Positions 11,257 to 31,878 of a stretch of 64,000 nucleotides of DNA are shown in pieces. The notes under the pieces were generated by a model, which saw nothing but the letters and a program-made list of their open reading frames with translations, did not search any database and was not told where the DNA came from. The position numbers and the translations under genes are program-made. How positions within the stretch are numbered: the stretch's first letter is position 1; each line of letters opens with the position of its first letter. This DNA is from Nitrospirota bacterium (GTDB taxonomy: Bacteria; Nitrospirota; UBA9217): contig CAVVUN010000002.1 in NCBI GenBank assembly GCA_963751455.1, forward strand, positions 352,001-416,000. The letters are read 5' to 3'.

Positions 11257-11730
11257 TTACGGCTTATAGCACCAATGAAGATTACAATCGCTCCCACCCC
11301 AGTAAATCCTCACGACCTTTTCGTTAAAGCCGTCTGGGCAAGCAGCAGTATCGCCTTTATAGGGATTTGTTGTGTCTCCGTCGCAGCCATAACCTGTAAA
11401 ATACATTCCGCCAAAGCCATAGGTCGCACCGCTGATTGTTCCGCTGATGTTTGCGTTTCCCACCACAGCCAAATTCGTTTGTGAGCTATTCGTACCAACG
11501 CTAAGTTTACCGTTAACAGTACTGTTGCCGGTTACAGTCTCGCCGTTACTGGTAACTGTGCCGTTGACCTTTAAATTGCCATTGATCTCCGCTCTAGGCG
11601 TGGGGGCAGTACCCGTACCAACTCCGAAATTGCCGTATACAATCAAATCGCCGGGTGCCGCATAAATATTTTCCGTGGTAAGAACCAAAACCGCTAAAAC
11701 GACCATAACCATTAAGACGCTAATCTTCAT
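11257..11730 (-). CDS. Small secreted protein with a beta-helix-like stalk and a Cys-containing tip domain
   Basis: GGAGG RBS and signal peptide, NG-x-V repeats, and the C-terminal FGGMY..C..NPY.G..ACPDGF..C..WCY. Confidence 0.75.
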   Translation of the reverse strand: MKISVLMVMVVLAVLVLTTENIYAAPGDLIVYGNFGVGTGTAPTPRAEINGNLKVNGTVTSNGETVTGNSTVNGKLSVGTNSSQTNLAVVGNANISGTISGATYGFGGMYFTGYGCDGDTTNPYKGDTAACPDGFNEKVVRIYWGGSDCNLHWCYKP

Positions 11731-14232: not shown

Positions 14233-15213
14233 TTAGAAACGCGCAGCCAGAGTGAAGTTAAATGAGTTTGCGTCTCCAAAACCGAGGTTATTATCGGTCA
14301 GATGGAAACGGCCATAAGCACCGGTCAGAGAAAGCCGGCGAGTAAAAAAATACTCGAAATTCGCCGAATAAGTTCTACCTCCCGGGATAGCTGAATAAGT
14401 TCTACCTCCCGGAATAGCTAGTGACTTGCTTGAACTGTTTTCAAATCCTATTCCCGCACTCATGCGTCGGGTCCAGTAATAAACAAGCGACACCGATTCA
14501 GTAGTGTTTATTGGTTGTGCACTATGTACTGATCTCGTCTGGTTGATTCTTGATTGGAAACTTACGCTCCTGTCGCGGTTCAGTTGACGCACGTATTTTG
14601 AAACAACGCCATAGCCAAGTGTTTCCGAATTTAGAAAAAACATATCTGGATTGACATTAATCATATTTATCGCTTCTGCGTAATTATAGGCAATCTCGAT
14701 ACCTACTAGTAAGGAATTCGTAAGATAATTTCCGATGCTTATTCCTGACTTATACTCCCTAGTTTCCCCCTGGCCAGAGTCATAGAAACGAAGTCTAGAC
14801 TTGTCAAACGATATTGCAATGGCAAGAGGGAACCCAGGCCTTGCATAATTAAGCACGAATTGTTGCTCCGGTCCGGTCCCATGCCGTATTCCAGATCTGA
14901 AGTCCATGTGCTGCCAACTAAAAAAAGCGCTGCCGATATGCTCAAGAAATGCAGCTTCTGCATAAGGATGGTCTACAGTGCTTACGGGAGCAAAGAATAT
15001 TTCTCCTGAAAATCCGTACGAAATCGTCCTGTTATCTGTCGGCTCTTCCGGCATCAAAGAAATGAACGTTGCCCTGCTATCCCGAGAGTCAATCCATTGG
15101 TAAATGGTTGATATCTGCGCCTGGTACTGGTCCTCACCAAATGCTACGTTGATACAAAGCACAAACGAAATCAATGCAACCATGCTGCTCTTTTTTTTCA
15201 TGCGCTTCTCCAT
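14233..15213 (-). CDS. Putative outer-membrane beta-barrel (porin-like)
   Basis: Signal peptide, amphipathic strands, PYAEAAFL motif and a C-terminal Phe (FTLAARF). Confidence 0.7.
   Translation of the reverse strand: MEKRMKKKSSMVALISFVLCINVAFGEDQYQAQISTIYQWIDSRDSRATFISLMPEEPTDNRTISYGFSGEIFFAPVSTVDHPYAEAAFLEHIGSAFFSWQHMDFRSGIRHGTGPEQQFVLNYARPGFPLAIAISFDKSRLRFYDSGQGETREYKSGISIGNYLTNSLLVGIEIAYNYAEAINMINVNPDMFFLNSETLGYGVVSKYVRQLNRDRSVSFQSRINQTRSVHSAQPINTTESVSLVYYWTRRMSAGIGFENSSSKSLAIPGGRTYSAIPGGRTYSANFEYFFTRRLSLTGAYGRFHLTDNNLGFGDANSFNFTLAARF
14366..14419. repeat. 27-bp in-frame tandem duplication (AIPGGRTYS twice)
   Basis: gaataagttctacctcccggRatagct occurs at 14366 and 14393. Confidence 0.9.
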
Positions 15214-15615: not shown

Positions 15616-16154
15616 TCATTCACGTCCAATCGCGTCGTTAAACACTATATCCTTTGCACCCCAATCAGAATGATATTTACCCTGCTTCACATATCTGTGA
15701 AAACTCGAATATCTCCATTTCAATGGCGCTGTCGTTAAACCATGTTTAACGGGATTGTAATGTATGTATTCGACATGCCGTATATAATCCATATCATCTT
15801 GTGTCTGATGCTCCCAAAACGTCGCTGCCAGATATATTGTTCACGTTTCGCTGTCCTGCTCGCGCGTTGCCTGCTTTCAAACGGATCATGACAGATCCTT
15901 GTAAAATTGCTCTTGATCAGCATCCACCGCTTTGAATATTCATTGTCGCCTGGAGGCAATGTCCAAAGGCAATGAAGGTGATCCGGCAGCAACACGATTG
16001 CATCCACAATCAACGGATACTTCGCTTTGACCGTCTCAAATGCCTGCCTCAGGAGCCTCGGATTCTCACCCAGGCACAATATCTTTTTCCGCTCATACGT
16101 TACGACCGTAAAGAAAAAAGTTGCTCCTGGTGTTTGCGAACGTCTATAGCGCAT
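15616..16154 (-). pseudogene. REP-associated tyrosine transposase (RAYT, IS200/TnpA Y1-like), frameshifted
   Basis: MRYRRSQTPGATFFFTVVT and the HUH motif LPDHLH. One T is missing at about 15816; restoring it gives WQRRFWEH..YIHYNPVKHG..W.YSSFHRY up to a stop at 15616. Confidence 0.9.
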
Positions 16155-16182
16155 CTGTTTTCCATCATCACTCACAATATGT

Positions 16183-16211
16183 GTTGGGCAATAAACCTCT
16201 GCCCAACCTAC
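16183..16211 (-). repeat. REP element (GTAG plus hairpin) at the 5' flank of RAYT
   Basis: The reverse complement reads GTAG gttgggca...tgcccaac, inverted relative to the 15573 copy. Confidence 0.85.
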
Positions 16212-16218
16212 CGGCTGA

Positions 16219-16306
16219 TATTGCCATAACGACTCCAGGGAGTGGCAGAAATGATGCCTGTCCCCGAGCTCTCCCCATAAGCATTCACTGCTGTTACAAC
16301 GTGGTA
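16219..16306 (-). pseudogene. Fragment of an FN3-RCC1 paralog
   Basis: Diverged copy of 13351-13437 (YHVVTAVNAYGES..IISATP/GVVMAI) with a 1-nt indel. Confidence 0.8.
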
Positions 16307-16389
16307 TTTCCCTTGCCGCCATAATAATAATCGTAGCCAATGGACATAAGCCGGTGCTCATAATCAAAGGTATACCTGCTGCCATACTT

Positions 16390-16764
16390 TCAAGGTCCGA
16401 CCCCGCTCCCGCTTTTTTCCGCTTGCTTCTTGTTCTTACTGCCAACGAATGGAAGCCATGCATCTGTATTTCCAATCAGTATCATTTCGGGCTTTGTGCT
16501 TTTCTTCTTCGGCACGACTACTTCAACACCAATTGGAACACGTTTGAAATCCATCGCAATCCATTTGTAACTCTTTAAACCATTCTGACGGCTTTCAATT
16601 ATGGGAGCAGCAAATAATTTACTATCGATTCCATATTCAAAAAAATAATCTTGGTACATTTCATTTGCAATTTCGAACATCTCTTTATCTGAGCGATCAC
16701 TTTGAGTTGTGCAACCTGCAAGCAGAACAATTACTGCACTAATTTCAATAAGTTTATTCATCAT
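16390..16764 (-). CDS. Small lipoprotein, candidate toxin immunity protein
   Basis: Lipobox LAGC, AT-rich, and starts just after a toxin-like remnant. Confidence 0.65.
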   Translation of the reverse strand: MMNKLIEISAVIVLLAGCTTQSDRSDKEMFEIANEMYQDYFFEYGIDSKLFAAPIIESRQNGLKSYKWIAMDFKRVPIGVEVVVPKKKSTKPEMILIGNTDAWLPFVGSKNKKQAEKSGSGVGP

Positions 16765-17133: not shown

Positions 17134-17748
17134 TCAAGGTCTCTTCCCGGGAGTGAGAGTCCCTTCCTCACCCGAACCAATAAGATCCGCTGTTGGAATT
17201 AACCTGCAATTCTTTAGCTTATTCTTCTCAATAAACTCTTTCACTCTTTCTGTAACTATTATGAACTTCGGCAATGGCCATATAGTAAAAAAATCAGAGC
17301 CATCCCATTGCGATTCATCTACAAACAAACCTTTTCCAAAGTCTGTATATATTTTGTGACCGCATGCGGTGCACTCGTACTTTAACTTGATTTCTGATTT
17401 CGGATGTGCATTGCCGCCATTACCTATCACAATAAACTCCCACAACGGAGGCACCGCGTATTTGCTCCCTCTTCCAACCTTATCGACGCCAATAGGCTTC
17501 AGCGTGTAGCCGGTAAAACCTGCCTCTTCAAACAGTGTTGCCACTTCTTCCGTGATTATCCAATCACTCAGGAAAGTCGTTATAAAATGAGGTACCTTTG
17601 CAGACTTCAAGTCGATTTTTAAATCCCCGATTCTCGTGCCTGCACGCTGATGTCCTTTGTCGATAGGACATTTTATTCCTTCCCAGTCAGTTCCCTCAGC
17701 GAAATCTGCCCTACTATAATCTTTTATAGACAATTTATAAAAAATCAT
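17134..17748 (-). CDS. Immunity protein, SitI6/double-CXXCG- or Imm11-like
   Basis: CPIDKGH and CTACG motifs, and WDGSDFF..IIVTERVKEFI; lies directly downstream of the DUF2380-like toxin. Confidence 0.7.
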   Translation of the reverse strand: MIFYKLSIKDYSRADFAEGTDWEGIKCPIDKGHQRAGTRIGDLKIDLKSAKVPHFITTFLSDWIITEEVATLFEEAGFTGYTLKPIGVDKVGRGSKYAVPPLWEFIVIGNGGNAHPKSEIKLKYECTACGHKIYTDFGKGLFVDESQWDGSDFFTIWPLPKFIIVTERVKEFIEKNKLKNCRLIPTADLIGSGEEGTLTPGKRP

Positions 17749-17806: not shown

Positions 17807-19074
17807 CTATTTTAACCTTCGCCATGGTATGCCAAATTGTATCACCATTGTGTCAAGGTGTTCTAATATTTGTCTATCATTAGCAGTGGGGTTTTTCTCA
17901 AAAAACTGATACCAAGCTTTATTCCAGTTATTCTGCCCGGTGTGGATACCATATGGCTTAAAGATGTGAGCATCTGTTGCGAGGTTAACAGTGAATTCAT
18001 TTATGTTGAGACCTGCTTTTTCAAAATGTGGAGCAAGTGTTCTTGCCTGTGGTAAAAGATGGTGGACTTGATATCCCGGTATCCTTGCCATCTTCACCGG
18101 CATAAACATCAATGGCATTTCATAGAAAGAATGCGGTAACAGATAATTCGTAGTTTGAATGCCTAACCAATCAATACCAGCAGCTATGTAATTCCCAGCT
18201 TCCCAATTTTCGTCGCATCTACCCTTGATATAATCTCGAAATCCACTGAATAAGCCGCTTGACTCTCCTGTTATATCAGAATTATATCCTACTGTGCTGT
18301 TCCCCCATTCACTTCCCCAACTCAACGATGAATTGCCACTGTTTGAGTCATACGGCACAAAGCTACTTGATGAGTAGGGCGACGATAGCTGGTCATAATA
18401 ATTAAAATAACCATAATCCCTATTATAGGGGTCTGCATAAAAGGTAAGCGAGGTATCATATTCATCATACCCGCTGGGGTCAATATAGCGAAGCGGACTA
18501 TTCAAAACATAGCTGAACCGATTGAGCGCCTGTGGATTGGTAGGATCAGAGACTACTGGATTAGCGCTGATAAACCTTCCAATCGACGGATTATAGAACC
18601 GCGCATTGTAATTGTACAGCCCCGTCTCGGCATCAAACTCCTGTGAGGTGTACTTATGGTTCACGGACAGGAGTCCGTAATCGCTCAGTGTTTCTCCGAA
18701 AGGACGATAGCGGATGGTATACACTTTCTCCTTGGCGTAGCTTCCCGCCATGACCTCGAAATTCCCCATGGTCACGGTGCCCTGGCTGATTATGAGGCTG
18801 TTTACGAGCACGGAATTTTCGATCTGCTTCGTGTAGCCACAGTCGTATCCCCCCTTGATCGTTACGTTGACCGGGCGGTTGAGATTGAGTGGGATTGGCT
18901 CGGAGGTAAAGTTTACTGCGCGCGCCTGGATGATGTCGCCATTGACCGCTACATTATAGGCCACACGAAGCAACGAGTAATAATTATAGACCGATGTTCC
19001 GCGCAATATGCGGACAGGCGGTTTGGAACATGCGCTGTTCTGGATGGCCCCCGTCTGGGTCACGACCTGGGTGC
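17807..19074 (-). CDS. Orphan Rhs module: core fragment plus DUF2380/SitA6-like (HNH/AHH-type) toxin
   Basis: Repeats the main Rhs core up to DPSG. The C-terminal region has HHLLPQ..F..AGLNI..H..IH..WNKAW..F..NP.A. No convincing start or RBS. Confidence 0.85.
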
Positions 19075-20879
19075 GCCACCTTAATAGTTGCTATTCAATT
19101 TTCAAAGAACATCTGTGCACGATATCGTGGAAGTAACATTTGTGCCTATCGAATCCCAACCGCTTTGAGGAACTGGCCCATAATCAACTGAACTGCTAAA
19201 TAAACACATAGACATAAAAAGAAGCAATCATATATAACAATACTAAAACGCTGTTTATATTTCTCTGTTTCAAAGTTTCCATTTTATAATTCTCTTCGAT
19301 GATTTTGTATTTGTCGTGATAGACAAACGAAAAGTAAAGTATAATTGTGACCATGAATAACAGAAATAGCTGGACAACCTTGGGCAAGTGCTGAACATCA
19401 ACATTTATCAGACCTAGTTTTCGTAATAAAAGAACTATCGTAAGCACATTCAAAGACGCGAATATCGACACAATAAACATGGCCTTGTATTCAGGGACGT
19501 CTTCAGCTCCCCATTTTTTTAACTGCCACGTGTAAGTTCGGTAAAAAATATATTTATAAATATTCATCATATATCTCCTGGCACTCCCGGCATATTGTAT
19601 ATGACCGGAATGGGATACACTATTACAGGTGAAGGAGGACCTTCAAACCCACCCATCAAATCTGCGGCCCAGTAACCCACCCCGGCACCCACACCGAATG
19701 GCCCACCGATGAGTCCATAAAATCCAACACCCACATCCAGCGCTGATTTACTCGCTTTATCATAGTCACCCATTTGGTAAGCATTACGATACTGTCCGAC
19801 TGAGAGAAAAGTAGAAGACATAAAAGTCGCGTAGCCGCCCATCCTGAATAATTTTGCGTTTCTCAACGCAATAGAACGAGCGCTGGTCCATTGATTACCG
19901 CCCCAACGGTTAGAATACCATTTCGCGTTTATACCGCGCCAATAACCTTCAAATTCATTACTGTATTCGCCTGCCGCAGCCCCTGTACCTAATAGATTTA
20001 AAACACTCCCGGCAACGAAAGCAGTGTTATTATTCCACCGGCTTTCATTTTCATTACCAGTCGCGTCTGTGTTTGGCCAGGGTGTACTCGTATCATATCC
20101 GAAAGTGTAGGACGGCCAATTATTGCTTGCTAAGCTATGCAAGTCATACGGCACAGAGCTGTTTGATGAGTACGGAGAAGAGATCTGATCATAGTAATTG
20201 TAATAACCAGAACCACCCCAATCAGAATAGCCAATATTGTGCGAGTAAGCATAATAGGAGTCATATTCATCATACCCGCTGGGGTCAACATAGCGAAGCG
20301 GACTATTCAGGACATAGCTGTAACGGTTTAGCGCCTGAGGATTGGTAGGATCAGAGACTACCGGATTAGCGCTGATAAACCTTCCAATCGACGGATTATA
20401 GAGCCGGGCATTGTAGTTGTACAGCTCCGTATCGGCATCAAACTCCTGAGAGGTGTATTTATGGTTCACGGACAAGAGTCCGTAATCGCTCAGGGTTTCT
20501 CCAAAGGGACTGTAGCGGATGGTATACACTTTTTCCTTCGCATAGCTGCCCGCCATGACCTCGAAATTCCCCATTGTCACGGTGCCTTGACTGATTATAA
20601 GGCTGTTTACGAGCACGGAATTATCGATCTGCTGAGTGTAGCCGCAGTCGTATCCGCCCTTGATTGTTACGTTAACGGGGCGGTTAAGATTGAGGGGGAT
20701 TGGCTCGGACGTAAAGTTTACTGCACGGGCCTGGATGATGTCGCCATTGACCGCTACATTATAGGCCACACGAAGCAACGAGTAATAATTATAGACCGAT
20801 GTTCCGCGCAATATGCGGACAGGCGGCTTGGAACATGCGTTGTTCTGGATGGCTCCGGTCTGGGTCACAACCTGGGTGC
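18456..20879. repeat. 619-bp diverged direct repeat of the Rhs core (18456-19074 vs 20261-20879)
   Basis: Offset is 1805 nt at both ends, and the differences inspected are mostly synonymous. Confidence 0.95.
19196..19570 (-). CDS. Membrane immunity protein candidate for the main Rhs toxin
   Basis: About three hydrophobic helices, AT-rich, and the start overlaps the Rhs stop. Confidence 0.75.
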   Translation of the reverse strand: MMNIYKYIFYRTYTWQLKKWGAEDVPEYKAMFIVSIFASLNVLTIVLLLRKLGLINVDVQHLPKVVQLFLLFMVTIILYFSFVYHDKYKIIEENYKMETLKQRNINSVLVLLYMIASFYVYVFI

Positions 20880-23800
20880 TGCCGAGATGGTCGCCGTGGT
20901 AGTAAAGAACATCGGACCCGGTCTTCGTTGCTATGCGCGTGTCTCCGGCGAAGATGGCCTTGGCGCACGTATTCAATACGCACTCGTACAGTTTCCCAAG
21001 ATAGATGTTTTCGCCGCTCGAAGTAGATTTCTTGACCCGCGTACCCGCGCCATCGTACACGAAACTTGTGGTCGCGTTGTTTAGAGTGACGGACTGCGGC
21101 ATGTTGTCATAATCATACGTAATCGATCTGTAAACCGTTGAACCAGTGCTTTCTGTTATCAAATTCCCGTTCAGATCGTAGGAATACGTCATGCCGGTTG
21201 TAATGTTAGATTTAACAGCATGGGGATGGAGACCCGTGCTGTCAGTGTGGTCATAAGTGATGCCTTCTTTATAGCTGATATTACCAGTTTGGGAATAGTT
21301 ATAGAAAAGGTCGCTCACGCCTCCAAAGCTGGCGGCGTTCGGGGTCTGTGCATGCTGAATGCGGCCCAGACCGTCATACTCAAACCACTGAGTCATTGAG
21401 TAATCGACACTGTCGACAATGTTCTTAATATTTCCCCCTGGGTAATAATCATAGGCGAGATTAATGAGCGTCTGGTTCGTAGTCCCGGTGACGATTGATT
21501 GTAGGTCGTAGTTTGACGTGCTATACATGTAATTCGTAATAATGCCGTTGCCGTATGTAATCGTCCCGGGCTGGCCTATTGCATTATACCCGTTGTACGC
21601 CGCGTAATTAACAGCGGTGCCGGTTACAGACGAAAGGACGCCGGCAGTATAGGCATAGCTGACTGTTTCGTTATCAGGATAAGTAAGGCTTGCAGGCCTT
21701 CCGAGCGCATCATAGGTCGTCTTGAACGTATAAGAGGGAGTGACGTTGACGACTGATTTTGTTGTTTGGGATGTTCTGCCCAGCATGTCATAGTAATACT
21801 TTGTGGTGCCCGAGGCGTCGGACATTATTGAGAGTCTACCGACAGGATATGTGGTAGCTGCGTCATCTGGTGCGACATCGTAGGTGTAGTGAACGTCGGT
21901 CATGTTTACCGGTCCGTTTTTCGGATACTCTTTCCAGAGGAGCCTGTTCAATGCATCATAATGGAAGTATATGGGGTTCGTGCCCAAGCTATTAGCGTTA
22001 GCGTCCGTTTGGGAGGTAAGATTGTTGTTGGCGTCAAAGGAGTAGCTCCATTGGCCCATATCCGGATCTTTCATGTAATATTTTCTGCGGAGTGAATCGT
22101 AGCGCATTTCTGTTTGGTTGCCTTCGGCGTCCGTTACATAGCGGAGATTGCCGAGCACATCGTACTGGTATATGGTCGTCGCATAGGGCGCTCCTTGATC
22201 GGTCGTGCAGGAGGTGAATGCTGTACCAGGATTATATTCATCGACCTGTATAAGGCGGCCGAAGACATCTCTTGTTTCGCGCTTCTTATTGCCATCAGGG
22301 TCGATCCACGCCGTAACGCCATTCAGGTAGCAGGACTTTACAATCGTTCCATCAGAATTGGTTTTCTGCGTAACCCGGCCAACGGCATCATACTTTAACA
22401 CCTGTGTAGGATAGCTTGCAAGACCCTCGAAATAGGGGAGAGAAGAGATATAAACAGCGCCTCGAGCATCATAGGTTCTGTCGGTGCTGATCACTTTGTT
22501 GTCGGGTGCTTGGGAAAGGGTCTTGATGGTTCTTCCGAAGCCATCAAAGAAGACTTTTTTCCAGATAGTAGCGCCGGTTGAATAATCGATGGTTGAAGTG
22601 ACGGTTACATGCTGCTGTCCGACCGACCCAAAGCTATTATAAGAATATGACACCGTCCCATTTGAAGATGCAATCCCGTATGGATCAATTACCTTTGTTT
22701 TGCGGCCCAGAGCGTCATATTCGGTAGTGGTAGCGACGAGATTAGGGTCAATTACACTCGCCACCTGGCCATACAGTCCTTTGTCGGTCGATGCATTGAT
22801 CCCATAATATTGAATCGTTGTCCATTGGTCTTTGTCGTTTGTTTTACCTATAGGGTAAGTGTTTGTTGCTGTGTCATAGAAAATACGGGATTTTTTTCCA
22901 TTGCCATCGCGTGTGCAGACGAGGTTGCCGTATCCGTCCGAATCATAGGACATATTAATTTCGGGATCTGTTGCTCCTGTGGGCTTAGAATTGAGCCATC
23001 CGACGATTGTAGTAACATTACCGTGGGTTGGAATCTGGTTCGTGTACCCGGCCGGCATGGAACGTGTTTCACAGTCAGACGGATCATCATAATAGTATGT
23101 AGTAGAAGAGACTAGTTGTCCAGAAGAATCATATATCTTCTCGTACTTGGGCAGCCCGACTATGTAATTTTCGGTACTGTCCGTCGTGAAAGCCCTGGCT
23201 ATAGTCCGGTAAGGCGCTGATGCATTTGCAGAATTATACTCTTGTTCAGATGTTACGTTGCCATAGCCATCGTAGGAATAGTTTGTTTTTTTGTTCTGGC
23301 CGCTTGTGGAATCGTTGCACGTTGTCGTTGTGCTGCCGTCGCAAATATAGGTCTTAGTTGTATCAACTGCATTAAAATATCCGCCATTAGCGTTTATAAA
23401 GGAGTGGTAAATGATTGCCGATTCACTGTATATTGATCCGTTAGCATCAGTTACTCGTGTGTGATATGGCTTACCCTTTAAATCGGGTACTGGGGGATAG
23501 CATGCACATGGTTTGCCGGGTTCTGGTGAGCACGGCGTACAAGGTAAACCGGTAAGCACATTATAGTATTCAATCCCCTGGTGGAACCAAGTCTCAGTTA
23601 TTTTCCGCTCGTCATATGGGTCAGCAGGGCCGGTGACTGTTACATGATTGAAGCCTCGGAAGTCGCGCTCGGTGATGTGGTAGTAGCCACCTTCGTAGCC
23701 ATATTTTGTCTCGGCAAGATTGCCATTGCCGTCATCTCTTATAACAGAGCTGACGGTTTGAACTGAAAAAGGAAGCTGCACATTCGAATATTGTGTAGAT

Positions 23801-25986
23801 GGCGTATAGCTAATTCCCACGCTACCACCGATACTATTGAAAATCTTTATGAGGAGATTGCTCGCTTGGTCCGGATTGTCCGGATTGTCTGCCGGCCCAA
23901 CAGCTGTCGCAACCACCGGAATTCCCTGTGACGAAAACAAGTATCGGCCGCTGAGGAAAACAACATCAGTTCTGCCGTCGCCATTGAAATCGCCGATATG
24001 ATACCGTTTGATATTGTCGTTGCCCCATGTCATTGTGCCCCACGGCGATGAAAAGGTTTTAAAATTGCAACCGGCAGAAAGAGCTACCGAGAGGTTTCCA
24101 GATTGATCTATGAAAAGAATATCGGTCATGCCGTTTCCATCATAATCAGCAAACTTATACCGAGTAATATCGCCATTGCCCATTGAAATGGAAGGCATCG
24201 CAGTGATAAAAGCAGAACCCGTAGAGAATTCCGTTTGTATATTGCCGTTAGAGTCAATATAGATAATATCCGCCTTGCGGTCTCCATTAATATCACCAAC
24301 AGCGTACTGAGCCGGAATATCTCCATGACCCGAAGTTGCCCAGGGGTTTGAACTAACAACAAAACCTATTTCTGAATATGTGGCAACTTGAAGATTCCCA
24401 TCGCTGCCAATATAAAGAACATCTGCCTTTCCATCACCATTGAAGTCCGCAACTCTATACCTCGCCTCTTCACTATTACCCAATTTTGACGCAAACGTAT
24501 CAGAAACAAAACCGGCTGTTGAAGATCCTGTAGACAAATAAACATTCAACGTACCAGTCTGTACAGATAAAATATCAGCCTTTCCATTTCCGTCAAAATC
24601 TGCAACAAAATTCTGTTCAGGATTATATGCATTCACTGTAAGCCATTGTTCAACTGATCCAAAATTGGCGCCCGTAGATAGTGCAACATCAAACACACGC
24701 ACACCACTTATATAATCACGGTAGGATAAAAAAATATCTGCTTTACCATCTCCATCAAAATCTGCTGGATAAATTATCGTGTTGTGGGTATCGCCGATCC
24801 TGCCCCAAAGAGTCGTTATAAAATCAGATCCGGTCGATGAACCAACCGTCGCATATTCATTTCCCTGTGAATTAAGATAATCAATCCTAAGAATATCGCT
24901 GCGTCCATTTCCGTCAAAATCACTAATCTTATAATGACGTGACTCGACAAGATGGCCGAGACTTGATTTCGTACTGACGATAAAACCGGTGCTCTCCGGT
25001 GAGTAATCCATAATTGTTTCAGGCAATGGGCTCGTGCCATCTTTGCCTAATTGCTGGATGCCTCTTAAAAGAGTCCGAAAAGTATTGGCACTCTCTCTAT
25101 AGTTAAATTTATACGATCGAACGAGATTATTATTGGCAGTTATATCTATCCGGTCAAGGCGATACACGGTCTTGACCCCAAAATTCGGCGTGTATATTGT
25201 CACAGCATCCTGGCGTGCGCCGTCATCTCTTACGAACGTTATTCTGTTACTCGACATAATCGACGTGCTAGGCCATGTATAGTCTATATGATCCAGATAA
25301 ATATGTCCTTGATCTTTAAAATAATAATATTTTATATAATTGCCATTCGCGTCCATTTCTTGATCAAGGCACCATTTGAATACTTTACTCGCGTCGGCCG
25401 CAATATTATGGGCCGGATCGTCCGGTTGATCCTGTCTTGACTCGGAACTCTGGCCGAAGAAATAATGCGTGCCTGACTTGTCAATGACTTCCCAGGACGT
25501 AGGTCTTCCTGTTGTACTGTCCGTGGAAACCTTAAATTTTAAAAAACCAGTTTCTATTGTAGCGCGGTATTCGCCGTTTCCGATATTCGTCAGTCCTATA
25601 GTGTTTCCACCGGTTTTGAAAACGTAGCTATTTTTATCATAATTAACGCCGTTCTTTGTGCTACGCTCTATGGAGTCCACTTCAAGCTGCCATCCTAATC
25701 CAAGCCAACTATTTGACTGGTTGTTTTTATAAGTCAGGGTAAGTTTCGGTTCCATTCCGTTGCGTCCTGTGGGGACAAGAATGGGCATCAAATGTTTCAT
25801 CGCTCCCGTAAATAGGTCGGGAGTTGCTCCATCAAATTCTGAGGATGCATTATTGTCTTCGATTATTGATGATTTAAAAGATAGAGATGAATTGTCGTCA
25901 GCATCTTCTTCTCCAAATGCTGGAAAACGGAAGACTGTAGATATGAGAAGGATAAATAGGGAGAAAAGACAAAGCAGCTTCTTCAT
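19567..25986 (-). CDS. Secreted SpvB/FG-GAP/YD-repeat Rhs polymorphic toxin
   Basis: Signal peptide, SpvB-like GRNGMEPKLTLTY..WLGLGW, several DFDGDGKAD repeats, REFRGF-like ERDFRGF, YD repeats, the core YHGDHLGS..YNYNARLYNP.IGRF..NSPLRYVDPSG, and a variable C-terminus. Confidence 0.93.
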   Translation of the reverse strand: MKKLLCLFSLFILLISTVFRFPAFGEEDADDNSSLSFKSSIIEDNNASSEFDGATPDLFTGAMKHLMPILVPTGRNGMEPKLTLTYKNNQSNSWLGLGWQLEVDSIERSTKNGVNYDKNSYVFKTGGNTIGLTNIGNGEYRATIETGFLKFKVSTDSTTGRPTSWEVIDKSGTHYFFGQSSESRQDQPDDPAHNIAADASKVFKWCLDQEMDANGNYIKYYYFKDQGHIYLDHIDYTWPSTSIMSSNRITFVRDDGARQDAVTIYTPNFGVKTVYRLDRIDITANNNLVRSYKFNYRESANTFRTLLRGIQQLGKDGTSPLPETIMDYSPESTGFIVSTKSSLGHLVESRHYKISDFDGNGRSDILRIDYLNSQGNEYATVGSSTGSDFITTLWGRIGDTHNTIIYPADFDGDGKADIFLSYRDYISGVRVFDVALSTGANFGSVEQWLTVNAYNPEQNFVADFDGNGKADILSVQTGTLNVYLSTGSSTAGFVSDTFASKLGNSEEARYRVADFNGDGKADVLYIGSDGNLQVATYSEIGFVVSSNPWATSGHGDIPAQYAVGDINGDRKADIIYIDSNGNIQTEFSTGSAFITAMPSISMGNGDITRYKFADYDGNGMTDILFIDQSGNLSVALSAGCNFKTFSSPWGTMTWGNDNIKRYHIGDFNGDGRTDVVFLSGRYLFSSQGIPVVATAVGPADNPDNPDQASNLLIKIFNSIGGSVGISYTPSTQYSNVQLPFSVQTVSSVIRDDGNGNLAETKYGYEGGYYHITERDFRGFNHVTVTGPADPYDERKITETWFHQGIEYYNVLTGLPCTPCSPEPGKPCACYPPVPDLKGKPYHTRVTDANGSIYSESAIIYHSFINANGGYFNAVDTTKTYICDGSTTTTCNDSTSGQNKKTNYSYDGYGNVTSEQEYNSANASAPYRTIARAFTTDSTENYIVGLPKYEKIYDSSGQLVSSTTYYYDDPSDCETRSMPAGYTNQIPTHGNVTTIVGWLNSKPTGATDPEINMSYDSDGYGNLVCTRDGNGKKSRIFYDTATNTYPIGKTNDKDQWTTIQYYGINASTDKGLYGQVASVIDPNLVATTTEYDALGRKTKVIDPYGIASSNGTVSYSYNSFGSVGQQHVTVTSTIDYSTGATIWKKVFFDGFGRTIKTLSQAPDNKVISTDRTYDARGAVYISSLPYFEGLASYPTQVLKYDAVGRVTQKTNSDGTIVKSCYLNGVTAWIDPDGNKKRETRDVFGRLIQVDEYNPGTAFTSCTTDQGAPYATTIYQYDVLGNLRYVTDAEGNQTEMRYDSLRRKYYMKDPDMGQWSYSFDANNNLTSQTDANANSLGTNPIYFHYDALNRLLWKEYPKNGPVNMTDVHYTYDVAPDDAATTYPVGRLSIMSDASGTTKYYYDMLGRTSQTTKSVVNVTPSYTFKTTYDALGRPASLTYPDNETVSYAYTAGVLSSVTGTAVNYAAYNGYNAIGQPGTITYGNGIITNYMYSTSNYDLQSIVTGTTNQTLINLAYDYYPGGNIKNIVDSVDYSMTQWFEYDGLGRIQHAQTPNAASFGGVSDLFYNYSQTGNISYKEGITYDHTDSTGLHPHAVKSNITTGMTYSYDLNGNLITESTGSTVYRSITYDYDNMPQSVTLNNATTSFVYDGAGTRVKKSTSSGENIYLGKLYECVLNTCAKAIFAGDTRIATKTGSDVLYYHGDHLGSTQVVTQTGAIQNNACSKPPVRILRGTSVYNYYSLLRVAYNVAVNGDIIQARAVNFTSEPIPLNLNRPVNVTIKGGYDCGYTQQIDNSVLVNSLIISQGTVTMGNFEVMAGSYAKEKVYTIRYSPFGETLSDYGLLSVNHKYTSQEFDADTELYNYNARLYNPSIGRFISANPVVSDPTNPQALNRYSYVLNSPLRYVDPSGYDEYDSYYAYSHNIGYSDWGGSGYYNYYDQISSPYSSNSSVPYDLHSLASNNWPSYTFGYDTSTPWPNTDATGNENESRWNNNTAFVAGSVLNLLGTGAAAGEYSNEFEGYWRGINAKWYSNRWGGNQWTSARSIALRNAKLFRMGGYATFMSSTFLSVGQYRNAYQMGDYDKASKSALDVGVGFYGLIGGPFGVGAGVGYWAADLMGGFEGPPSPVIVYPIPVIYNMPGVPGDI

Positions 25987-26102: not shown

Positions 26103-28499
26103 TTAATTATTTGACTCGTTACCATTCCTGTTCGTGCACTGGCTCCTGCCCGGCTGCAGGTCCCAGTACCCGAGGGAGTAATACTGTTCGTTGATATAGG
26201 ATGCAATTTCATTGGCCTTGGTGAAGTTGCCTTCGAGGAAGAGATCCAGAACAATGTGCAATGCCTCTCCCGGATTGGTGAATTCCGCGGTGTCTGCGGA
26301 GATAGAAGGGTCTGTTCCATCGCTTGTGTAAATCAGGCTGTTGGAATAACTGCTGTTATAGAAGACGTTGCTTTCTTGATAAGCATCGCTTGCGCTGCGT
26401 GAACCGTCGAGTTCAATGCCCACAGAAAACGTGCCGCCGGCGGCCGCTGTGAGGTCCGTAAAAAATCCGTTGCCAAGGCTGACATTGACGTTTGAATTCT
26501 GTGCGAGAAGCGTAGTGTCTGCATAGAGAGCGCCGCTGCCTGCGCCATCGAATATGGTCTGCGCAGAAGCGATTTGCGGATCGTCTTTCAGGGCGTGTAT
26601 CTTGATGAAGAAATCTCCAGTATCCGGGCTGCTGGAGCCCGAGTAGATCACGAGGTCGGCGCTTACGATTGCTGCACCTTGGGGTATCGATTGCAGGTTA
26701 AAGGTGTAAAAGGGGCGGGTTTCGATCAGTCCATGCATGTAATAATTATCCGTATTGCTTTGATAGGTATACTCGTATTTACTCGCATACGAGTATGAGG
26801 TTAAAAATTGATCATAATAGTCCTGCTGGTACTGAACTCCGTTCTCCTGTGTCTCATAGAAATCCCGGTACACGTATCCTCCGGTGGCGTTTATGGTGAC
26901 CGTTTTCCGGGCTCCATCGATTCCGAAATAGGTGAGGTTCAAGGAAGTCGTTATTGCCCCGCTCCCGATATTGCGCGCGAGAGCGCGGATCTGGCGAACT
27001 GCTGCCTGGGAATGTTTATACGAAGCCAGGTCGGTTCCCGTCATATCTTGTTGAACCATTACTGAAACGGGTAAATAAGTTGGACTTGGCTGATAAGTGG
27101 CACTATTTCCGGAAAGTTCGTATATAAGTGTGGGATTAAAAACGTAAACACCAGGTGACGTGTCGCACGATATCGTGATGGCGGCAACGACTGTGACGGT
27201 CCCGCCGGGTTGAACCGATGTGGACGCGGTCCACGGCGCTCCGTAGTTTCCTGCATCGGTAAATTCTCCGCTCCATCCTGCCGGGAGATTTGCTATTTTC
27301 AGTGAACCCGATTTTGTTATATATGCCGTGCTGCTGCCGGTGTTCATAAGCGTTATATAGGCGAGGAACGTGCCGCCGGGGAGCATAGATGTCGGATTAA
27401 CAACGGCGGACGTAATTTCGGCGGACAGCGGCGGGCTGAGCGCTCCTACCAGAAGCTGCGTTACAGCCTGACCAAGGGTGCCGGATATAGCGGAGATGTT
27501 CTGGCCGTCCATTGCATAGACTATGCCTGTCCCTTGCGCACCGATATTCTCCGGGGGTTCCCCGGTCCCGAAGAAAAGAGTGGTGCTGTTCGCAACCATC
27601 GACAAGACTGCGCCGGAACCTGAATCCGCCTGTTCCCACACGAGCGCCATCGCGCCGTTGTCCCATCGGTATAGCTGCTCTTTGTGTCGATTGTCGACCG
27701 TCGTTGCCATGCCGATATACAAGTTGTCACCGTATGTTTGCATTGACCGGATGGTCGAAAAGTCAATTCCCGAAGTTTGTTGAGTAAAATTGATCCCGTC
27801 AGTCATTTGATATATCGAACTATCGAAAGAACCTGCAAAAAGCTTGGTCTGAAATACTTCCATGGCTTGAATGCCGTTTCCGCTCGCGTAGCTCACTTGT
27901 TCAATTCCAGTCCCGTCAAAGCGGGCGATGAAGTCAGTATTTGAGTCGCCGATATAAAGGTAGTCGTTCCATGGATAAAGAGTTTTGAACCCCTGCCATC
28001 CTGATGAAAGTGAACTGGAATCCGCGACTTTGGTCCATTGCATGTCTCCGTCGAATCTGAAAAGCTGTCCGACACCCGCGTTAACGTTTCGAGCGGAGGC
28101 ATAGAGCTGTTCCTTGTATACGGCAAATTTTTCTACTTTAGCATCAAAAGGCGATGAAACGGGACTCCATGAAGTGCCCCCAGCATACCGGTAGATAATG
28201 GAAAGTCCGTCCCACGCATTCTGGGAGGCTGCGGCATAAAGCTGTCCTTGAAAGATTATGATGGCATCTACCGATACACCCAATTCGCCTGAGATAGCTT
28301 CCCATGCAGCCACGATGCTCTCGGCGTTTTCTTGATATCTGTATACTTTACCGGGCTTAGAGGTGGCGGCATAAAGACTGCTCTGCTGAGATGAGGAATC
28401 GCTGATCAGGGTCGGGGAAGAGGTTGTGCAGGAAAGGAGTCCGACAGAAATGAGCACAATGATGAACGTTGCGAGCAGTGTATATTTATTGGTGCGCAT
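26103..28499 (-). CDS. Large lipoprotein with a beta-propeller-like N-terminus and Ig-like domains
   Basis: Lipobox LLSC, repeated F/Y.G.LY.G blades, and FNLQSIPQGAAIVSADL (DNRLRE/CBM96-like, tentative). Lies directly upstream of Rhs. Confidence 0.75.
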   Translation of the reverse strand: MRTNKYTLLATFIIVLISVGLLSCTTSSPTLISDSSSQQSSLYAATSKPGKVYRYQENAESIVAAWEAISGELGVSVDAIIIFQGQLYAAASQNAWDGLSIIYRYAGGTSWSPVSSPFDAKVEKFAVYKEQLYASARNVNAGVGQLFRFDGDMQWTKVADSSSLSSGWQGFKTLYPWNDYLYIGDSNTDFIARFDGTGIEQVSYASGNGIQAMEVFQTKLFAGSFDSSIYQMTDGINFTQQTSGIDFSTIRSMQTYGDNLYIGMATTVDNRHKEQLYRWDNGAMALVWEQADSGSGAVLSMVANSTTLFFGTGEPPENIGAQGTGIVYAMDGQNISAISGTLGQAVTQLLVGALSPPLSAEITSAVVNPTSMLPGGTFLAYITLMNTGSSTAYITKSGSLKIANLPAGWSGEFTDAGNYGAPWTASTSVQPGGTVTVVAAITISCDTSPGVYVFNPTLIYELSGNSATYQPSPTYLPVSVMVQQDMTGTDLASYKHSQAAVRQIRALARNIGSGAITTSLNLTYFGIDGARKTVTINATGGYVYRDFYETQENGVQYQQDYYDQFLTSYSYASKYEYTYQSNTDNYYMHGLIETRPFYTFNLQSIPQGAAIVSADLVIYSGSSSPDTGDFFIKIHALKDDPQIASAQTIFDGAGSGALYADTTLLAQNSNVNVSLGNGFFTDLTAAAGGTFSVGIELDGSRSASDAYQESNVFYNSSYSNSLIYTSDGTDPSISADTAEFTNPGEALHIVLDLFLEGNFTKANEIASYINEQYYSLGYWDLQPGRSQCTNRNGNESNN

Positions 28500-29125
28500 G
28501 GTCCCTCCGATCAAAGCAAGATTGGCACATTATTTTTATCCTTTTTAAAGAATGGGCGGCAAGAAAGGGCAGAATTTTGCCGTTTCTACAAAACTAATAC
28601 TTTTGTTTGAATAAGTATAAGAATAGTTAGAATTAAAAAATTATTCAAGAACTAATTCGGGTTATTTTAAGGGTATTGCACAGTGTTGCGATAAGTTGCT
28701 AATGAAGAATAAAGGATAAACAAATAAGGAGGTTGGACGATTTAAGGTGCTAATTCCGGATCATTCTTGTCCTGTAGTTTATCTAAACTTTGAATTTTAT
28801 GTGTCAAATTTTATGTGAGGGAAACAGGGAACATCTTAGAAGGTCTTTCTCCTCGCACCCAGCCTGCACGTCCCAACCTGGCGAACCACTCCGCGAGGGA
28901 AGTGATTCCAATTCAGATCTAGTTGCCTCCGCAAGCGATCACCGTTTATTCTGCTATATGTTTTAAAACACTTATGCACTTATGCATTTATTTTATCCGT
29001 CAGTTTGTGGCAGGCCCCTCTGTGTTTCGCCGAAGAAGTTTCTCTCGAGGTTTCGAGTCTGTTGAACCGGCGGTATAGCGCCTGCTCAAGCTCCGGAAGC
29101 AGCAACGGCTAAACCCTCTGATGTC

Positions 29126-30481: not shown

Positions 30482-31054
30482 CGTCATTTACGCCCAATAC
30501 ATGCCTTAAATTGCCTTGCTTCTCATCGCCTATCCACAGGTCCTCAACTTTAGCAAAATAGAATTAAATTAAAAGAATGCGACAAATAAATATAGAACTA
30601 AAGAAGACATACACAAAGGAGATTGCTCATACATATGTTTACACGTTTAGTAAGGGCATATGCGAATGCATGAAACTGAACATAATTTCAATGCAGCTAA
30701 CTGTTCATATATTAAAATTTATCTGGTAAAATTATCCTAATTTAGTTGACAAAGCGGATTTAAGAGGTACTGTTATATAAAGACTAAGTATTCTGCATTA
30801 AAGAATTACCTTCTAATTATTTAAGAATATAGTTCTAAATTCTTACAAATCAATGATCCTCCTGTTCTGGTCTTTCCCTGTTTTGAAGATTTATCTTCGC
30901 TTCATTGCTTAATGTGAAGCAGTAAAGTGAAAGAATGTGATTATCTTTACGATATATCTCCAGTTATAGCTTCGGATAGAAATAATCTGTGCAATCATTC
31001 CCGGCGGTAAGAGTCCATATTAAAGGCGATATAGAAATTTCTGCGGAGGACAAA

Positions 31055-31537
31055 GTGAAACATACGCAAAATATAAAAACGCTATTATTCGTCGTTGCTG
31101 CCGCGACACTAATCTCCTTTCCTTGCGTGATGGCATATGCTGCTGAGAATGTCCTTCACTTTTATGATCATCTAAATCGCCTGACAGAGTCTCGATATTC
31201 GGACGGGACGACAGTAACCTATGGTTATGATAAATTAGGTAATCGCATATCAAAGAAAAAATTATACAGCCCTCATGTACTAACGATTCAAAAAACAGGG
31301 TTGGGGACCGGTACAGTTTTAAGCAGCCCATCCCGAATAAATTGCGGACTGGACTGCTCAGATAAGTTTAGTGAAGGGACGGACATATCCCTCACTGCTA
31401 TACCTGATTCGGGATCTTCGTTTAGCCAATGGTCCGGCGGCGGATGCGGTGGAACAAATCCATGTCCGCTCACACTGACAGCGGATACGACAGTTACGGC
31501 TTTATTTTCCTGCCTGGTCCGCAGAATCTATGGATGA
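31055..31537 (+). CDS. Secreted YD-repeat plus divergent InlB B-repeat protein, probably 3'-truncated
   Basis: GGAGGA RBS, signal peptide, YDHLNRL..YGYDKLGNR, and GTGTV.S.P..INCG..C..LTA.PDSGS.F..WSGGGC. Confidence 0.75.
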   Translation: MKHTQNIKTLLFVVAAATLISFPCVMAYAAENVLHFYDHLNRLTESRYSDGTTVTYGYDKLGNRISKKKLYSPHVLTIQKTGLGTGTVLSSPSRINCGLDCSDKFSEGTDISLTAIPDSGSSFSQWSGGGCGGTNPCPLTLTADTTVTALFSCLVRRIYG

Positions 31538-31629: not shown

Positions 31630-31878
31630 ATGCTCATTAAGACGTTACTGAATCGGACAGAGAATGTCAAGCCGTTCATTTTTGGAGTAGCTCGGTTTGA
31701 GGTCGTAGAGGGGCATGACGCATTGGTTGTGGAGGTCGCGTTCCGGAAGAATTCGCGACCGCTCTGTCCCATTTGCGGGCTCAAGTGCACTGTGTATGAT
31801 ACCCAGCGGCCCCTCGAGGTAGCCTCAGGATCTTCCGGCGCTCTTCCGGTGCGCCGCGGCCGATCTGATAGGATTTGA
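31630..31878 (+). mobile_element. ISL3-family transposase N-terminal fragment
   Basis: MLIKTLLN..zinc-finger CPICG..YD, after which the frame degenerates. Confidence 0.65.

What the first reader, a model, noticed from the sequence alone, without database searches (positions are those of the whole stretch)
20554..20835. A ~94-aa domain inserted inside the Rhs-associated core, possibly a relocated secretion or sorting domain
Seen: in typical Rhs cores DHLGS..VT and YxPFGE are about 10 residues apart. Here they are separated by CSKPPVRI..Y..L..AYNVAVNGDIIQARAVNF..NRPVNVTIKGGYDCGY..LIISQGTVT. The insert is intact in the diverged orphan copy (18749-19030), so it is retained. From recollection (not verified), this motif usually forms the extreme C-terminus of extracellular Geobacter/Nitrospirota proteins. 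Inference: it may be an export or surface-sorting tag placed in an internal loop because the C-terminus must carry the swappable toxin. That would define an undescribed delivery route for Rhs toxins.
Basis: partly seen in the sequence, partly recalled or inferred. Interest (0 to 1): 0.85.

Follow-up and report, generated by a model that had tools for sequence, protein, structure and literature searches.

The report
Docking tag inside an Rhs toxin
A predicted secreted bacterial toxin carries, within its conserved core region, a 94-residue domain that usually forms the very end of predicted exported proteins in Geobacter-like and Nitrospirota bacteria; it likely works as a docking tag that would attach the toxin to a tail-fibre-like protein encoded alongside it, an arrangement my literature searches did not find described.

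Summary
Confirmed. The 2139-aa SpvB/FG-GAP/Rhs protein has 121 residues between DHLGS and YSPFGE, against 16 in 6 of 6 other measurable Rhs of the genome. The orphan copy keeps the insert (16 synonymous, 2 non-synonymous changes). Eight other Rhs proteins carry it at the same site. It matches no Pfam or NCBIfam family; the model resembles the cap and first rungs of a right-handed beta-helix. It ends 122 of 137 top homologs, occurs 24-47 times in three Geobacter-type genomes, and alternates with a dockerin-like tail. The Rhs copies group with internal copies, not terminal ones. In the window's family it occurs in exactly the same 10 of 64 genomes as a signal-peptide tail-fibre-like protein, and Rhs loci supply it inside the toxin, on an adjacent YD-hairpin protein, or on a split shell. 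Best reading: a docking tag that likely couples the toxin to the fibre (0.45); rival: an export signal (0.3). Binding, export and whether the insert faces outward are untested. Close Rhs relatives lack it, so it is not obligatory. The scan's earlier notes held nothing on it.

The parts
19567..25986 (-). Rhs polymorphic toxin gene, 2139 aa: signal-peptide-like start, SpvB, FG-GAP repeats, TcdB_toxin_midN, YD repeats, insert, Rhs-associated core, variable tip
   Evidence: signal peptide judged from the sequence only
20878..20892 (-). DHLGS motif (aa 1699-1703) before the insert
20554..20835 (-). Inserted 94-aa domain (aa 1718-1811); predicted truncated beta-helix cap; Cys1 and Cys64 kept in 6 of 6 Rhs copies aligned
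20275..20514 (-). Rhs-associated core (TIGR03696, aa 1825-1904) ending in PLRYVDPSG
19570..20274 (-). Variable C-terminal tip (about 235 aa), presumed toxin; no family match
19196..19570 (-). Probable immunity gene; Bfi1-like (56.9 bits, under the cut-off of 100)
17807..19063 (-). Orphan Rhs module: starts just after DHLGS, carries the insert, core and a DUF2380/SitA6-like tip
18749..19030 (-). Second copy of the insert, in the orphan; 16 synonymous and 2 non-synonymous changes
17134..17748 (-). Probable immunity gene of the orphan; weak SitI6-like match (E 0.02); a homolog follows the Rhs in L011
11809..14064 (-). RCC1/FN3 lipoprotein-like gene in the same-strand cluster; no copy of the domain
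11257..11730 (-). Signal-peptide 'GDL.V.G' tail-fibre-like gene (157 aa), the proposed partner; the fibre label is from recalled repeat patterns, the only Pfam hit is weak Bactofilin (E 0.00095)
30989..31537 (+). Signal peptide + YD hairpin + InlB-B-repeat gene that stops beside a transposase-like remnant; same start as the adaptor proteins that end in the domain elsewhere, but no copy remains

Best explanation
The insert is a copy of an unannotated 90-residue domain, predicted to be a truncated beta-helix, that likely serves as a protein docking tag and here would attach the toxin shell to the tail-fibre-like protein encoded in the same gene cluster. Shown: the domain, its conserved site in nine Rhs loci, its usual C-terminal place, its swap with a dockerin-like tail, and its co-occurrence with the fibre gene. 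Inferred: the toxin and the fibre cross the inner membrane by their signal peptides. The shell folds round the toxic tip. The domain sits at a hairpin turn just before the core and points outward. Its open last rung pairs with a partner, likely the fibre's conserved GDL.V.G start. The complex leaves through the type II secretion system of the genome, and the fibre recognises target cells. Other Rhs of these bacteria would get the same tag from an adjacent YD-hairpin adaptor, or from the C-terminus of a split shell. In Geobacter-type genomes the same tag would dock many enzymes and adhesins on another, unidentified partner.
For: Same 10 of 64 family genomes hold the domain and the fibre start; 0 of the other 54 hold either. 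Seven of the 10 seeded the fibre profile; G151, G158 and G166 did not, and each has the fibre match 1-11 kb from the domain. Phylum sample: the 8 of 151 genomes with the domain all have the full fibre start (all 8 seeded it); 2 others have only partial matches. The fibre is the next gene after the domain-bearing gene in L006-L013 (8 loci). All 3 insert loci with flanks (window, L076, L077) have a fibre gene and no intact adaptor with the domain. Five Rhs loci without a seen insert (own C15, L010 with its core cut, L011, L013, L080 broken) have an adjacent YD-hairpin protein ending in the domain plus a fibre. L007 has a split Rhs whose shell ends in two copies. In 120 multicopper oxidase homologs the end is this domain in 15 and a dockerin-like tail in 27. 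Model pLDDT 94.9; best fold match is pectin methylesterase residues 10-100 (Z 6.5, rmsd 2.2, 72 aligned). Internal copies, including the Rhs ones, form their own group (SH-aLRT 96), so a free C-terminus does not seem needed.
Against: Five Geobacter-type genomes with 24 or more copies have no match to the fibre's first residues, and most of the 45 host genes in G182 are not followed by a fibre. No GDL fibre was found in 7 of 7 further loci screened (L017-L022, L029; some end near a contig edge), nor next to the genome's C1 and C3 hosts. Co-occurrence can come from one cassette moving as a unit. Two paralogs in the genome (40-41% identical) and L083, L084, L085 have no insert, domain or fibre in the stretch fetched. 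Four of the 10 family genomes with this close Rhs subfamily lack the domain. Z 6.5 is a middling score.
Confidence: 0.45

Rival explanations
1. The domain is an export or surface-sorting signal read by the cell's own machinery, most likely the type II secretion system. The fibre merely travels in the same cassette or hitch-hikes.
For: In G182, 42 of 47 copies end at the last residue, and 44 of 45 host proteins end in it or within 19 residues. 47 of 49 non-Rhs hits and 122 of 137 top representatives have a terminal copy. One copy on each of many unrelated passengers (subtilase, Lcl, multicopper oxidase, PKD adhesins) is the pattern of known sorting domains. All 10 domain-positive family genomes have the TPR-secretin-cohesin type II secretin, and in genus g3 only G015 has both. 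No T6SS sheath gene was found in the genome (control rang). A multicopper protein of Geobacter sulfurreducens is reported as secreted by an atypical type II system (title of Mehta 2006, seen only in the reference list of PMC5566968).
Against: The secretin is in 52 of 64 genomes, so 10 of 10 has a chance of about 0.10. Close Rhs relatives with signal peptides lack the domain. Internal and N-terminal copies exist, some on proteins that end in a dockerin-like tail (P0197, P0213, P0236). Whether OmpB itself carries the domain was not established.
Confidence: 0.3
2. The domain binds a surface polysaccharide (own envelope, biofilm matrix or target cell) directly, and tethers the toxin and other passengers without a protein partner.
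For: The closest folds are polysaccharide-acting beta-helices. Tyr25 and Tyr62 are well conserved. Multiple copies per protein (18 of 49) would add avidity.
Against: The model holds only the cap and first rungs, not the long groove of those enzymes. It does not explain the exact ending at the last residue or the fibre linkage.
Confidence: 0.15
3. The insert is a tolerated passenger from one recombination event with a neighbouring modular gene and has no role in the toxin.
For: The six Rhs copies tested form one group (SH-aLRT 84), consistent with one origin. Insert-free relatives are common.
Against: It is kept at the same site in nine loci down to 44% overall identity, with both cysteines. 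Main against orphan shows 16 synonymous to 2 non-synonymous changes, against 20 to 6 in the core itself.
Confidence: 0.07

Closest known systems
TcdB/TcaC-type polymorphic toxins (Zhang et al. 2012, PMC3482391; passages seen)
   Same: Signal peptide, SpvB, integrin-like propeller, RHS repeats, variable tip; that paper's table also lists tail-fibre repeats for this class.
   Different: A folded domain is inserted before the core. The fibre is a separate signal-peptide protein. No TcA was found (uncontrolled search). The passages read mention no such insert.
T6SS Rhs effectors and Tc BC shells (RhsA, PMC8765631; passages seen)
   Same: YD shell, C-terminal conserved region that spirals in and seals the cocoon, PxxxxDPxG motif.
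   Different: No PAAR-type start; signal peptide instead; no T6SS sheath gene in the genome; an extra 105 residues at a hairpin turn.
Type IX secretion C-terminal domain (TIGR04183/PF18962; features recalled)
   Same: About 80-90 residues, one per passenger at the extreme C-terminus, tens per genome; one oxidase homolog (P0193) has it in the same slot.
   Different: No family match, predicted beta-helix cap rather than Ig sandwich, internal and N-terminal copies, SprA not found.
Dockerin-cohesin docking pairs (features recalled)
   Same: A small, mostly terminal module that swaps onto many secreted passengers; a dockerin-like tail fills the same slot in 27 of 120 oxidase homologs.
   Different: Unrelated sequence and predicted fold; partner not shown.
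N-terminal cap of right-handed parallel beta-helices (pectin methylesterase, Pel9A, DUF1565, NosD)
   Same: Predicted fold (Z 6.5) and weak sequence hits to the starts of such proteins.
   Different: Stops after the first rungs and is used as a stand-alone, mostly C-terminal module.

Membership tests
Rhs polymorphic toxin | YD/RHS repeats | tested here: met
   PF05593 and TIGR01643 over cut-off
Rhs polymorphic toxin | Rhs-associated core with PxxxxDPxG | tested here: met
   TIGR03696 68.5 bits; PLRYVDPSG
Rhs polymorphic toxin | Variable tip with orphan module and small downstream genes | tested here: met
   Orphan shares the core and diverges after it; immunity-like matches are under cut-off
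Rhs polymorphic toxin | Autocleavage, toxicity and immunity | not testable with these tools
   needs bench work
TcdB/TcaC-type class | Signal peptide + SpvB + integrin-like propeller | tested here: met
   PF03534, PF13517, PF12256; signal peptide by eye; definition
Tc (ABC) toxin complex | TcA translocation subunit in the genome | tested here: inconclusive
   PF18276 not found, but no control genome rang
T6SS Rhs effector | T6SS machinery in the genome | tested here: not met
   PF05943 not found; control rang in E. coli
Type IX secretion CTD | Match to the CTD family and Ig-sandwich fold | tested here: not met
   No Pfam or NCBIfam match; model has a helix cap and beta-helix-like strands
Type IX secretion CTD | SprA translocon in the genome | tested here: inconclusive
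   TIGR04189 not found, no control rang
PEP-CTERM / GlyGly-CTERM / MYXO-CTERM tails | Motif + membrane helix + basic cluster | tested here: not met
   Copies end in a beta-strand with no membrane helix
Two-partner secretion (TPS) domain | N-terminal position | tested here: not met
   Mostly C-terminal
Two-partner secretion (TPS) domain | TpsB partner in the genome | tested here: inconclusive
   PF03865 not found, no control rang
Dockerin | Match to dockerin family | tested here: not met
   No Pfam match; it only alternates with a dockerin-like tail
Right-handed beta-helix superfamily | Cap helix and first rungs | tested here: met
   Z 6.5, rmsd 2.2, 72 aligned to 1xg2_A 10-100, with many other beta-helix starts below; weak profile hits to PF13229/DUF1565/NosD proteins; the Z is middling
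Right-handed beta-helix superfamily | Long solenoid with substrate groove | tested here: not met
   Domain is about 90 residues and usually ends the protein

The most novel reading that the evidence does not exclude
An undescribed docking system of Geobacter-type and Nitrospirota bacteria: a truncated beta-helix tag on thousands of secreted proteins pairs rung-to-rung with partners. In Nitrospirota it assembles a free 'toxin cocoon plus tail fibre' particle, exported by type II secretion without T6SS or TcA, with the tag supplied inside the Rhs core, on a YD-hairpin adaptor, or on a split shell.
Probability: 0.3. Interest if true: 0.9.

Novelty: new variant of a known kind. Interest (0 to 1): 0.74.

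Why it matters
Signal-peptide SpvB/Rhs toxins are widespread, and how those without a T6SS or TcA leave the cell and find a target is, to my knowledge, open. This locus names testable parts: a tag, a fibre and an adaptor. Separately, the tag is a large unannotated family (3,889 clusters at 50% identity with E up to 1e-10, some of them true beta-helix proteins). It ends dozens of predicted exported proteins per genome in Geobacter-type bacteria, including OmpB/MofA-like multicopper oxidases, so it could explain how these metal reducers sort or anchor surface proteins.

Tried and rejected
Complex prediction of the domain with the fibre trimer was not available, so binding is untested. AlphaFold of aa 1259-1905 gave pLDDT under 50 over most of the insert and the core, so inside or outside is untested; no fold search was run on it. 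Foldseek against PDB: nothing at E up to 0.001. PDB sequence search with the domain profile: nothing meaningful. Profile comparison of the domain with the fibre start: probability 3%, no homology. Plasmid collection: no match. ESM Atlas: only unnamed clusters and a weak DUF1565 row. A named G. sulfurreducens OmpB did not appear among the 120 listed homologs. No transporter gene recurred next to the domain. G130's hit is a full beta-helix protein and was dropped. Thirteen giant repeat proteins of the top 150 representatives had no full copy and were dropped before the 122 of 137 count. The careful tree did not finish; the quick tree on 89 columns is used, without a clade test. Literature searches listed no paper that describes this domain or insert, judged from titles and abstract starts; most subscription journals are not covered. 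Supplements of Zhang 2012 were not opened and could hold such architectures. Two earlier scan notes on other Nitrospirota tails concern different motifs.

Full report
Observation. The minus-strand ORF 19567-25986 encodes 2139 aa. It has a signal-peptide-like start (by eye), SpvB, FG-GAP repeats, TcdB_toxin_midN, YD repeats and an Rhs-associated core. DHLGS (aa 1699) and YSPFGE (aa 1825) are 121 residues apart. The spacer is 16 in 6 of 6 other measurable cores of the genome and 16-17 in six relatives. The 94-aa domain lies at 20835-20554. The orphan at 17807-19063 starts just after DHLGS and keeps it, with 16 synonymous and 2 non-synonymous changes, against 20 and 6 in the following core. The domain matches nothing in Pfam or NCBIfam.

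The insert recurs. Eight other Rhs proteins carry the domain at the same hairpin: P0005, L075 and L076, L077, and P0251, P0273, P0296, P0330. L076, P0296 and P0330 are full length and 44-48% identical to the window protein. Cys1 and Cys64 are kept in all 6 Rhs copies aligned; a disulfide is inferred.

What the domain is elsewhere. The genome has four more copies: at the C-terminus of a subtilase-like, an Lcl/Ig and a YD/PKD protein, and at the N-terminus of an RCC1/Ig protein. Of 49 non-Rhs hits with a copy of 50 bits or more, 47 have one within 8 residues of the end and 18 have several. The deep search found 8,423 clusters at E up to 0.001 and 3,889 at 1e-10, including true beta-helix proteins. 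Of the best 150, 137 have a full copy: 122 terminal, 6 Rhs inserts, 9 others. Named records are Nitrospirota, Geobacteraceae, Pelobacter and Deltaproteobacteria. It is in 8 of 151 phylum genomes, 10 of 64 family genomes, and 71 of 151 genomes of the order of a Geobacter-labelled genome. G181, G182 and G183 have 36, 47 and 24 matches. In G182, 42 of 47 end at the last residue, 2 are followed by a 19-residue repeat, 2 are the first of a terminal tandem pair, and 1 is N-terminal. In 120 listed multicopper oxidase homologs, 16 have the domain (15 at the end), 27 end in a dockerin-like tail, and one in a type IX-like tail.

Structure. The AlphaFold model (pLDDT 94.9) is a hairpin, a helix and short strands. 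Its best match among 48,161 chains is pectin methylesterase residues 10-100 (Z 6.5, rmsd 2.2, 72 aligned), with other beta-helix starts below; Foldseek gave nothing significant. The weak tail of the profile search is the start of beta-helix proteins. So it is most likely a beta-helix cap cut after the first rungs, which would leave an open edge (inference). Internal copies are often followed by Gly/Pro/Thr-rich linkers, which would let the chain turn away from that edge (inference). The model of the shell end was unreliable over the insert and core, so outward projection is inferred only. It rests on the site being a hairpin turn before the region that seals the cocoon (PMC8765631, passages).

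Origin. In a quick tree of 141 copies (106 terminal, 24 internal, 6 Rhs, 5 N-terminal; 89 columns), the six Rhs copies form one group (SH-aLRT 84). That group lies inside a group of 21 (SH-aLRT 96) with no terminal copy. One insertion from an already internal lineage is the simplest reading; no clade test was run.

Neighbours. No transporter recurred. A signal-peptide protein starting A(A/N)GDL.V.G with fibre-like repeats did. It is the next gene after the domain-bearing gene in L006-L013. Its profile hits exactly the 10 of 64 family genomes that have the domain. Seven of these seeded the profile; G151, G158 and G166 did not. In the phylum sample it gives full-start matches in the same 8 genomes and partial matches in 2 others. 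Rhs loci supply the domain in three ways. Inside the core: window, L076 and L077, each with a fibre gene and no intact adaptor. On an adjacent signal-peptide YD-hairpin protein: own C15, L010, L011, L013 and the broken L080. At the end of a split shell: L007. SpvB-type Rhs occur in 8 of 10 domain-positive and 7 of 54 negative genomes; kin are not independent.

Against. Two paralogs in the genome (40-41% identical) and L083, L084, L085 have no insert, domain or fibre in the stretch fetched. Four of 10 genomes with the close subfamily lack the domain. Five Geobacter-type genomes rich in the domain lack the fibre start, and 7 further loci showed no fibre. The partner there must differ, or the shared role is export. 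The two profiles are not homologous. The complex could not be predicted.

Export route. The genome has the TPR-secretin-cohesin type II system (68% to the L076 secretin) and no T6SS sheath gene (control rang). SprA, TcA and TpsB were not found, but those searches had no ringing control. The secretin is in 52 of 64 family genomes, including all 10 with the domain (chance about 0.10). A reference title says a Geobacter multicopper protein is secreted by an atypical type II system (PMC5566968, passages and reference list). L023's oxidase ends in the domain, but OmpB itself was not checked.

Comparison. The host fits the TcdB/TcaC class of Zhang 2012 (PMC3482391, passages). [quoted passage not shown] PMC7861908 (term search only) gave nothing relevant. 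Seven literature searches listed no description of this domain or insert. Three look-ups of earlier scan notes gave none on it.

Verdict. The insert is real, conserved and apparently selected. It belongs to a large unannotated, mostly C-terminal domain family that behaves like an attachment tag. Best mechanism: a docking tag that likely couples the toxin shell to a co-encoded fibre (0.45). Rivals: export signal (0.3), glycan binding (0.15), inert (0.07). Novelty: new variant of a known toxin class, with a 0.3 chance of a new docking and delivery system. Interest 0.74.

Noticed in passing
L076:15710-18070 (-); own genome C1:690143-695853: The type II secretin ends in a cohesin domain, and 27 of 120 multicopper oxidase homologs end in a dockerin-like tail: a possible dockerin-cohesin docking of substrates on the secretin. 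One literature search listed nothing on it.
   Followed up: partly
L007:10813-18046 (-): Split Rhs: a signal-peptide shell gene that stops before the core and continues into FN3/PKD and two copies of the domain, plus a separate signal-peptide gene with the core start and an NlpC/P60-like tip.
   Followed up: partly
L006, L010, L011, L013, L080, L085; window 30989-31537: Family of signal-peptide proteins that start with a single YD hairpin followed by Ig/PKD/RCC1 modules, often next to Rhs genes; 15 of the 137 top representatives start this way. They may dock on the shell edge. L085's has no copy of the domain and ends in a Cys-rich tip.
   Followed up: partly
L071, L074: Two G182 copies are followed by a 19-residue repeat of the last rung, in line with a beta-helix that can be extended.
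   Followed up: no
window 14233-15213 (-): Porin_7-like outer-membrane barrel gene (weak, E 0.0003) inside the Rhs cluster; not seen in other loci.
   Followed up: partly
window 15735-16475 (-) and 31630-31878 (+): Two transposase-like remnants (labels recalled from sequence, not tested) in and near the cluster.
   Followed up: no
window 26103-28514 (-): 803-aa lipoprotein-like ORF directly upstream of the Rhs, with only weak NEW3 and DNRLRE matches.
   Followed up: no
own genome C9:222329-229505: Fibre gene(s) interrupted by a transposase-like gene, next to an RCC1/Ig protein with the domain at its N-terminus.
   Followed up: partly
L077 (G151): The insert-bearing Rhs gene is in two frames (969 and 1114 aa); real frameshift or assembly error not determined.
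   Followed up: no
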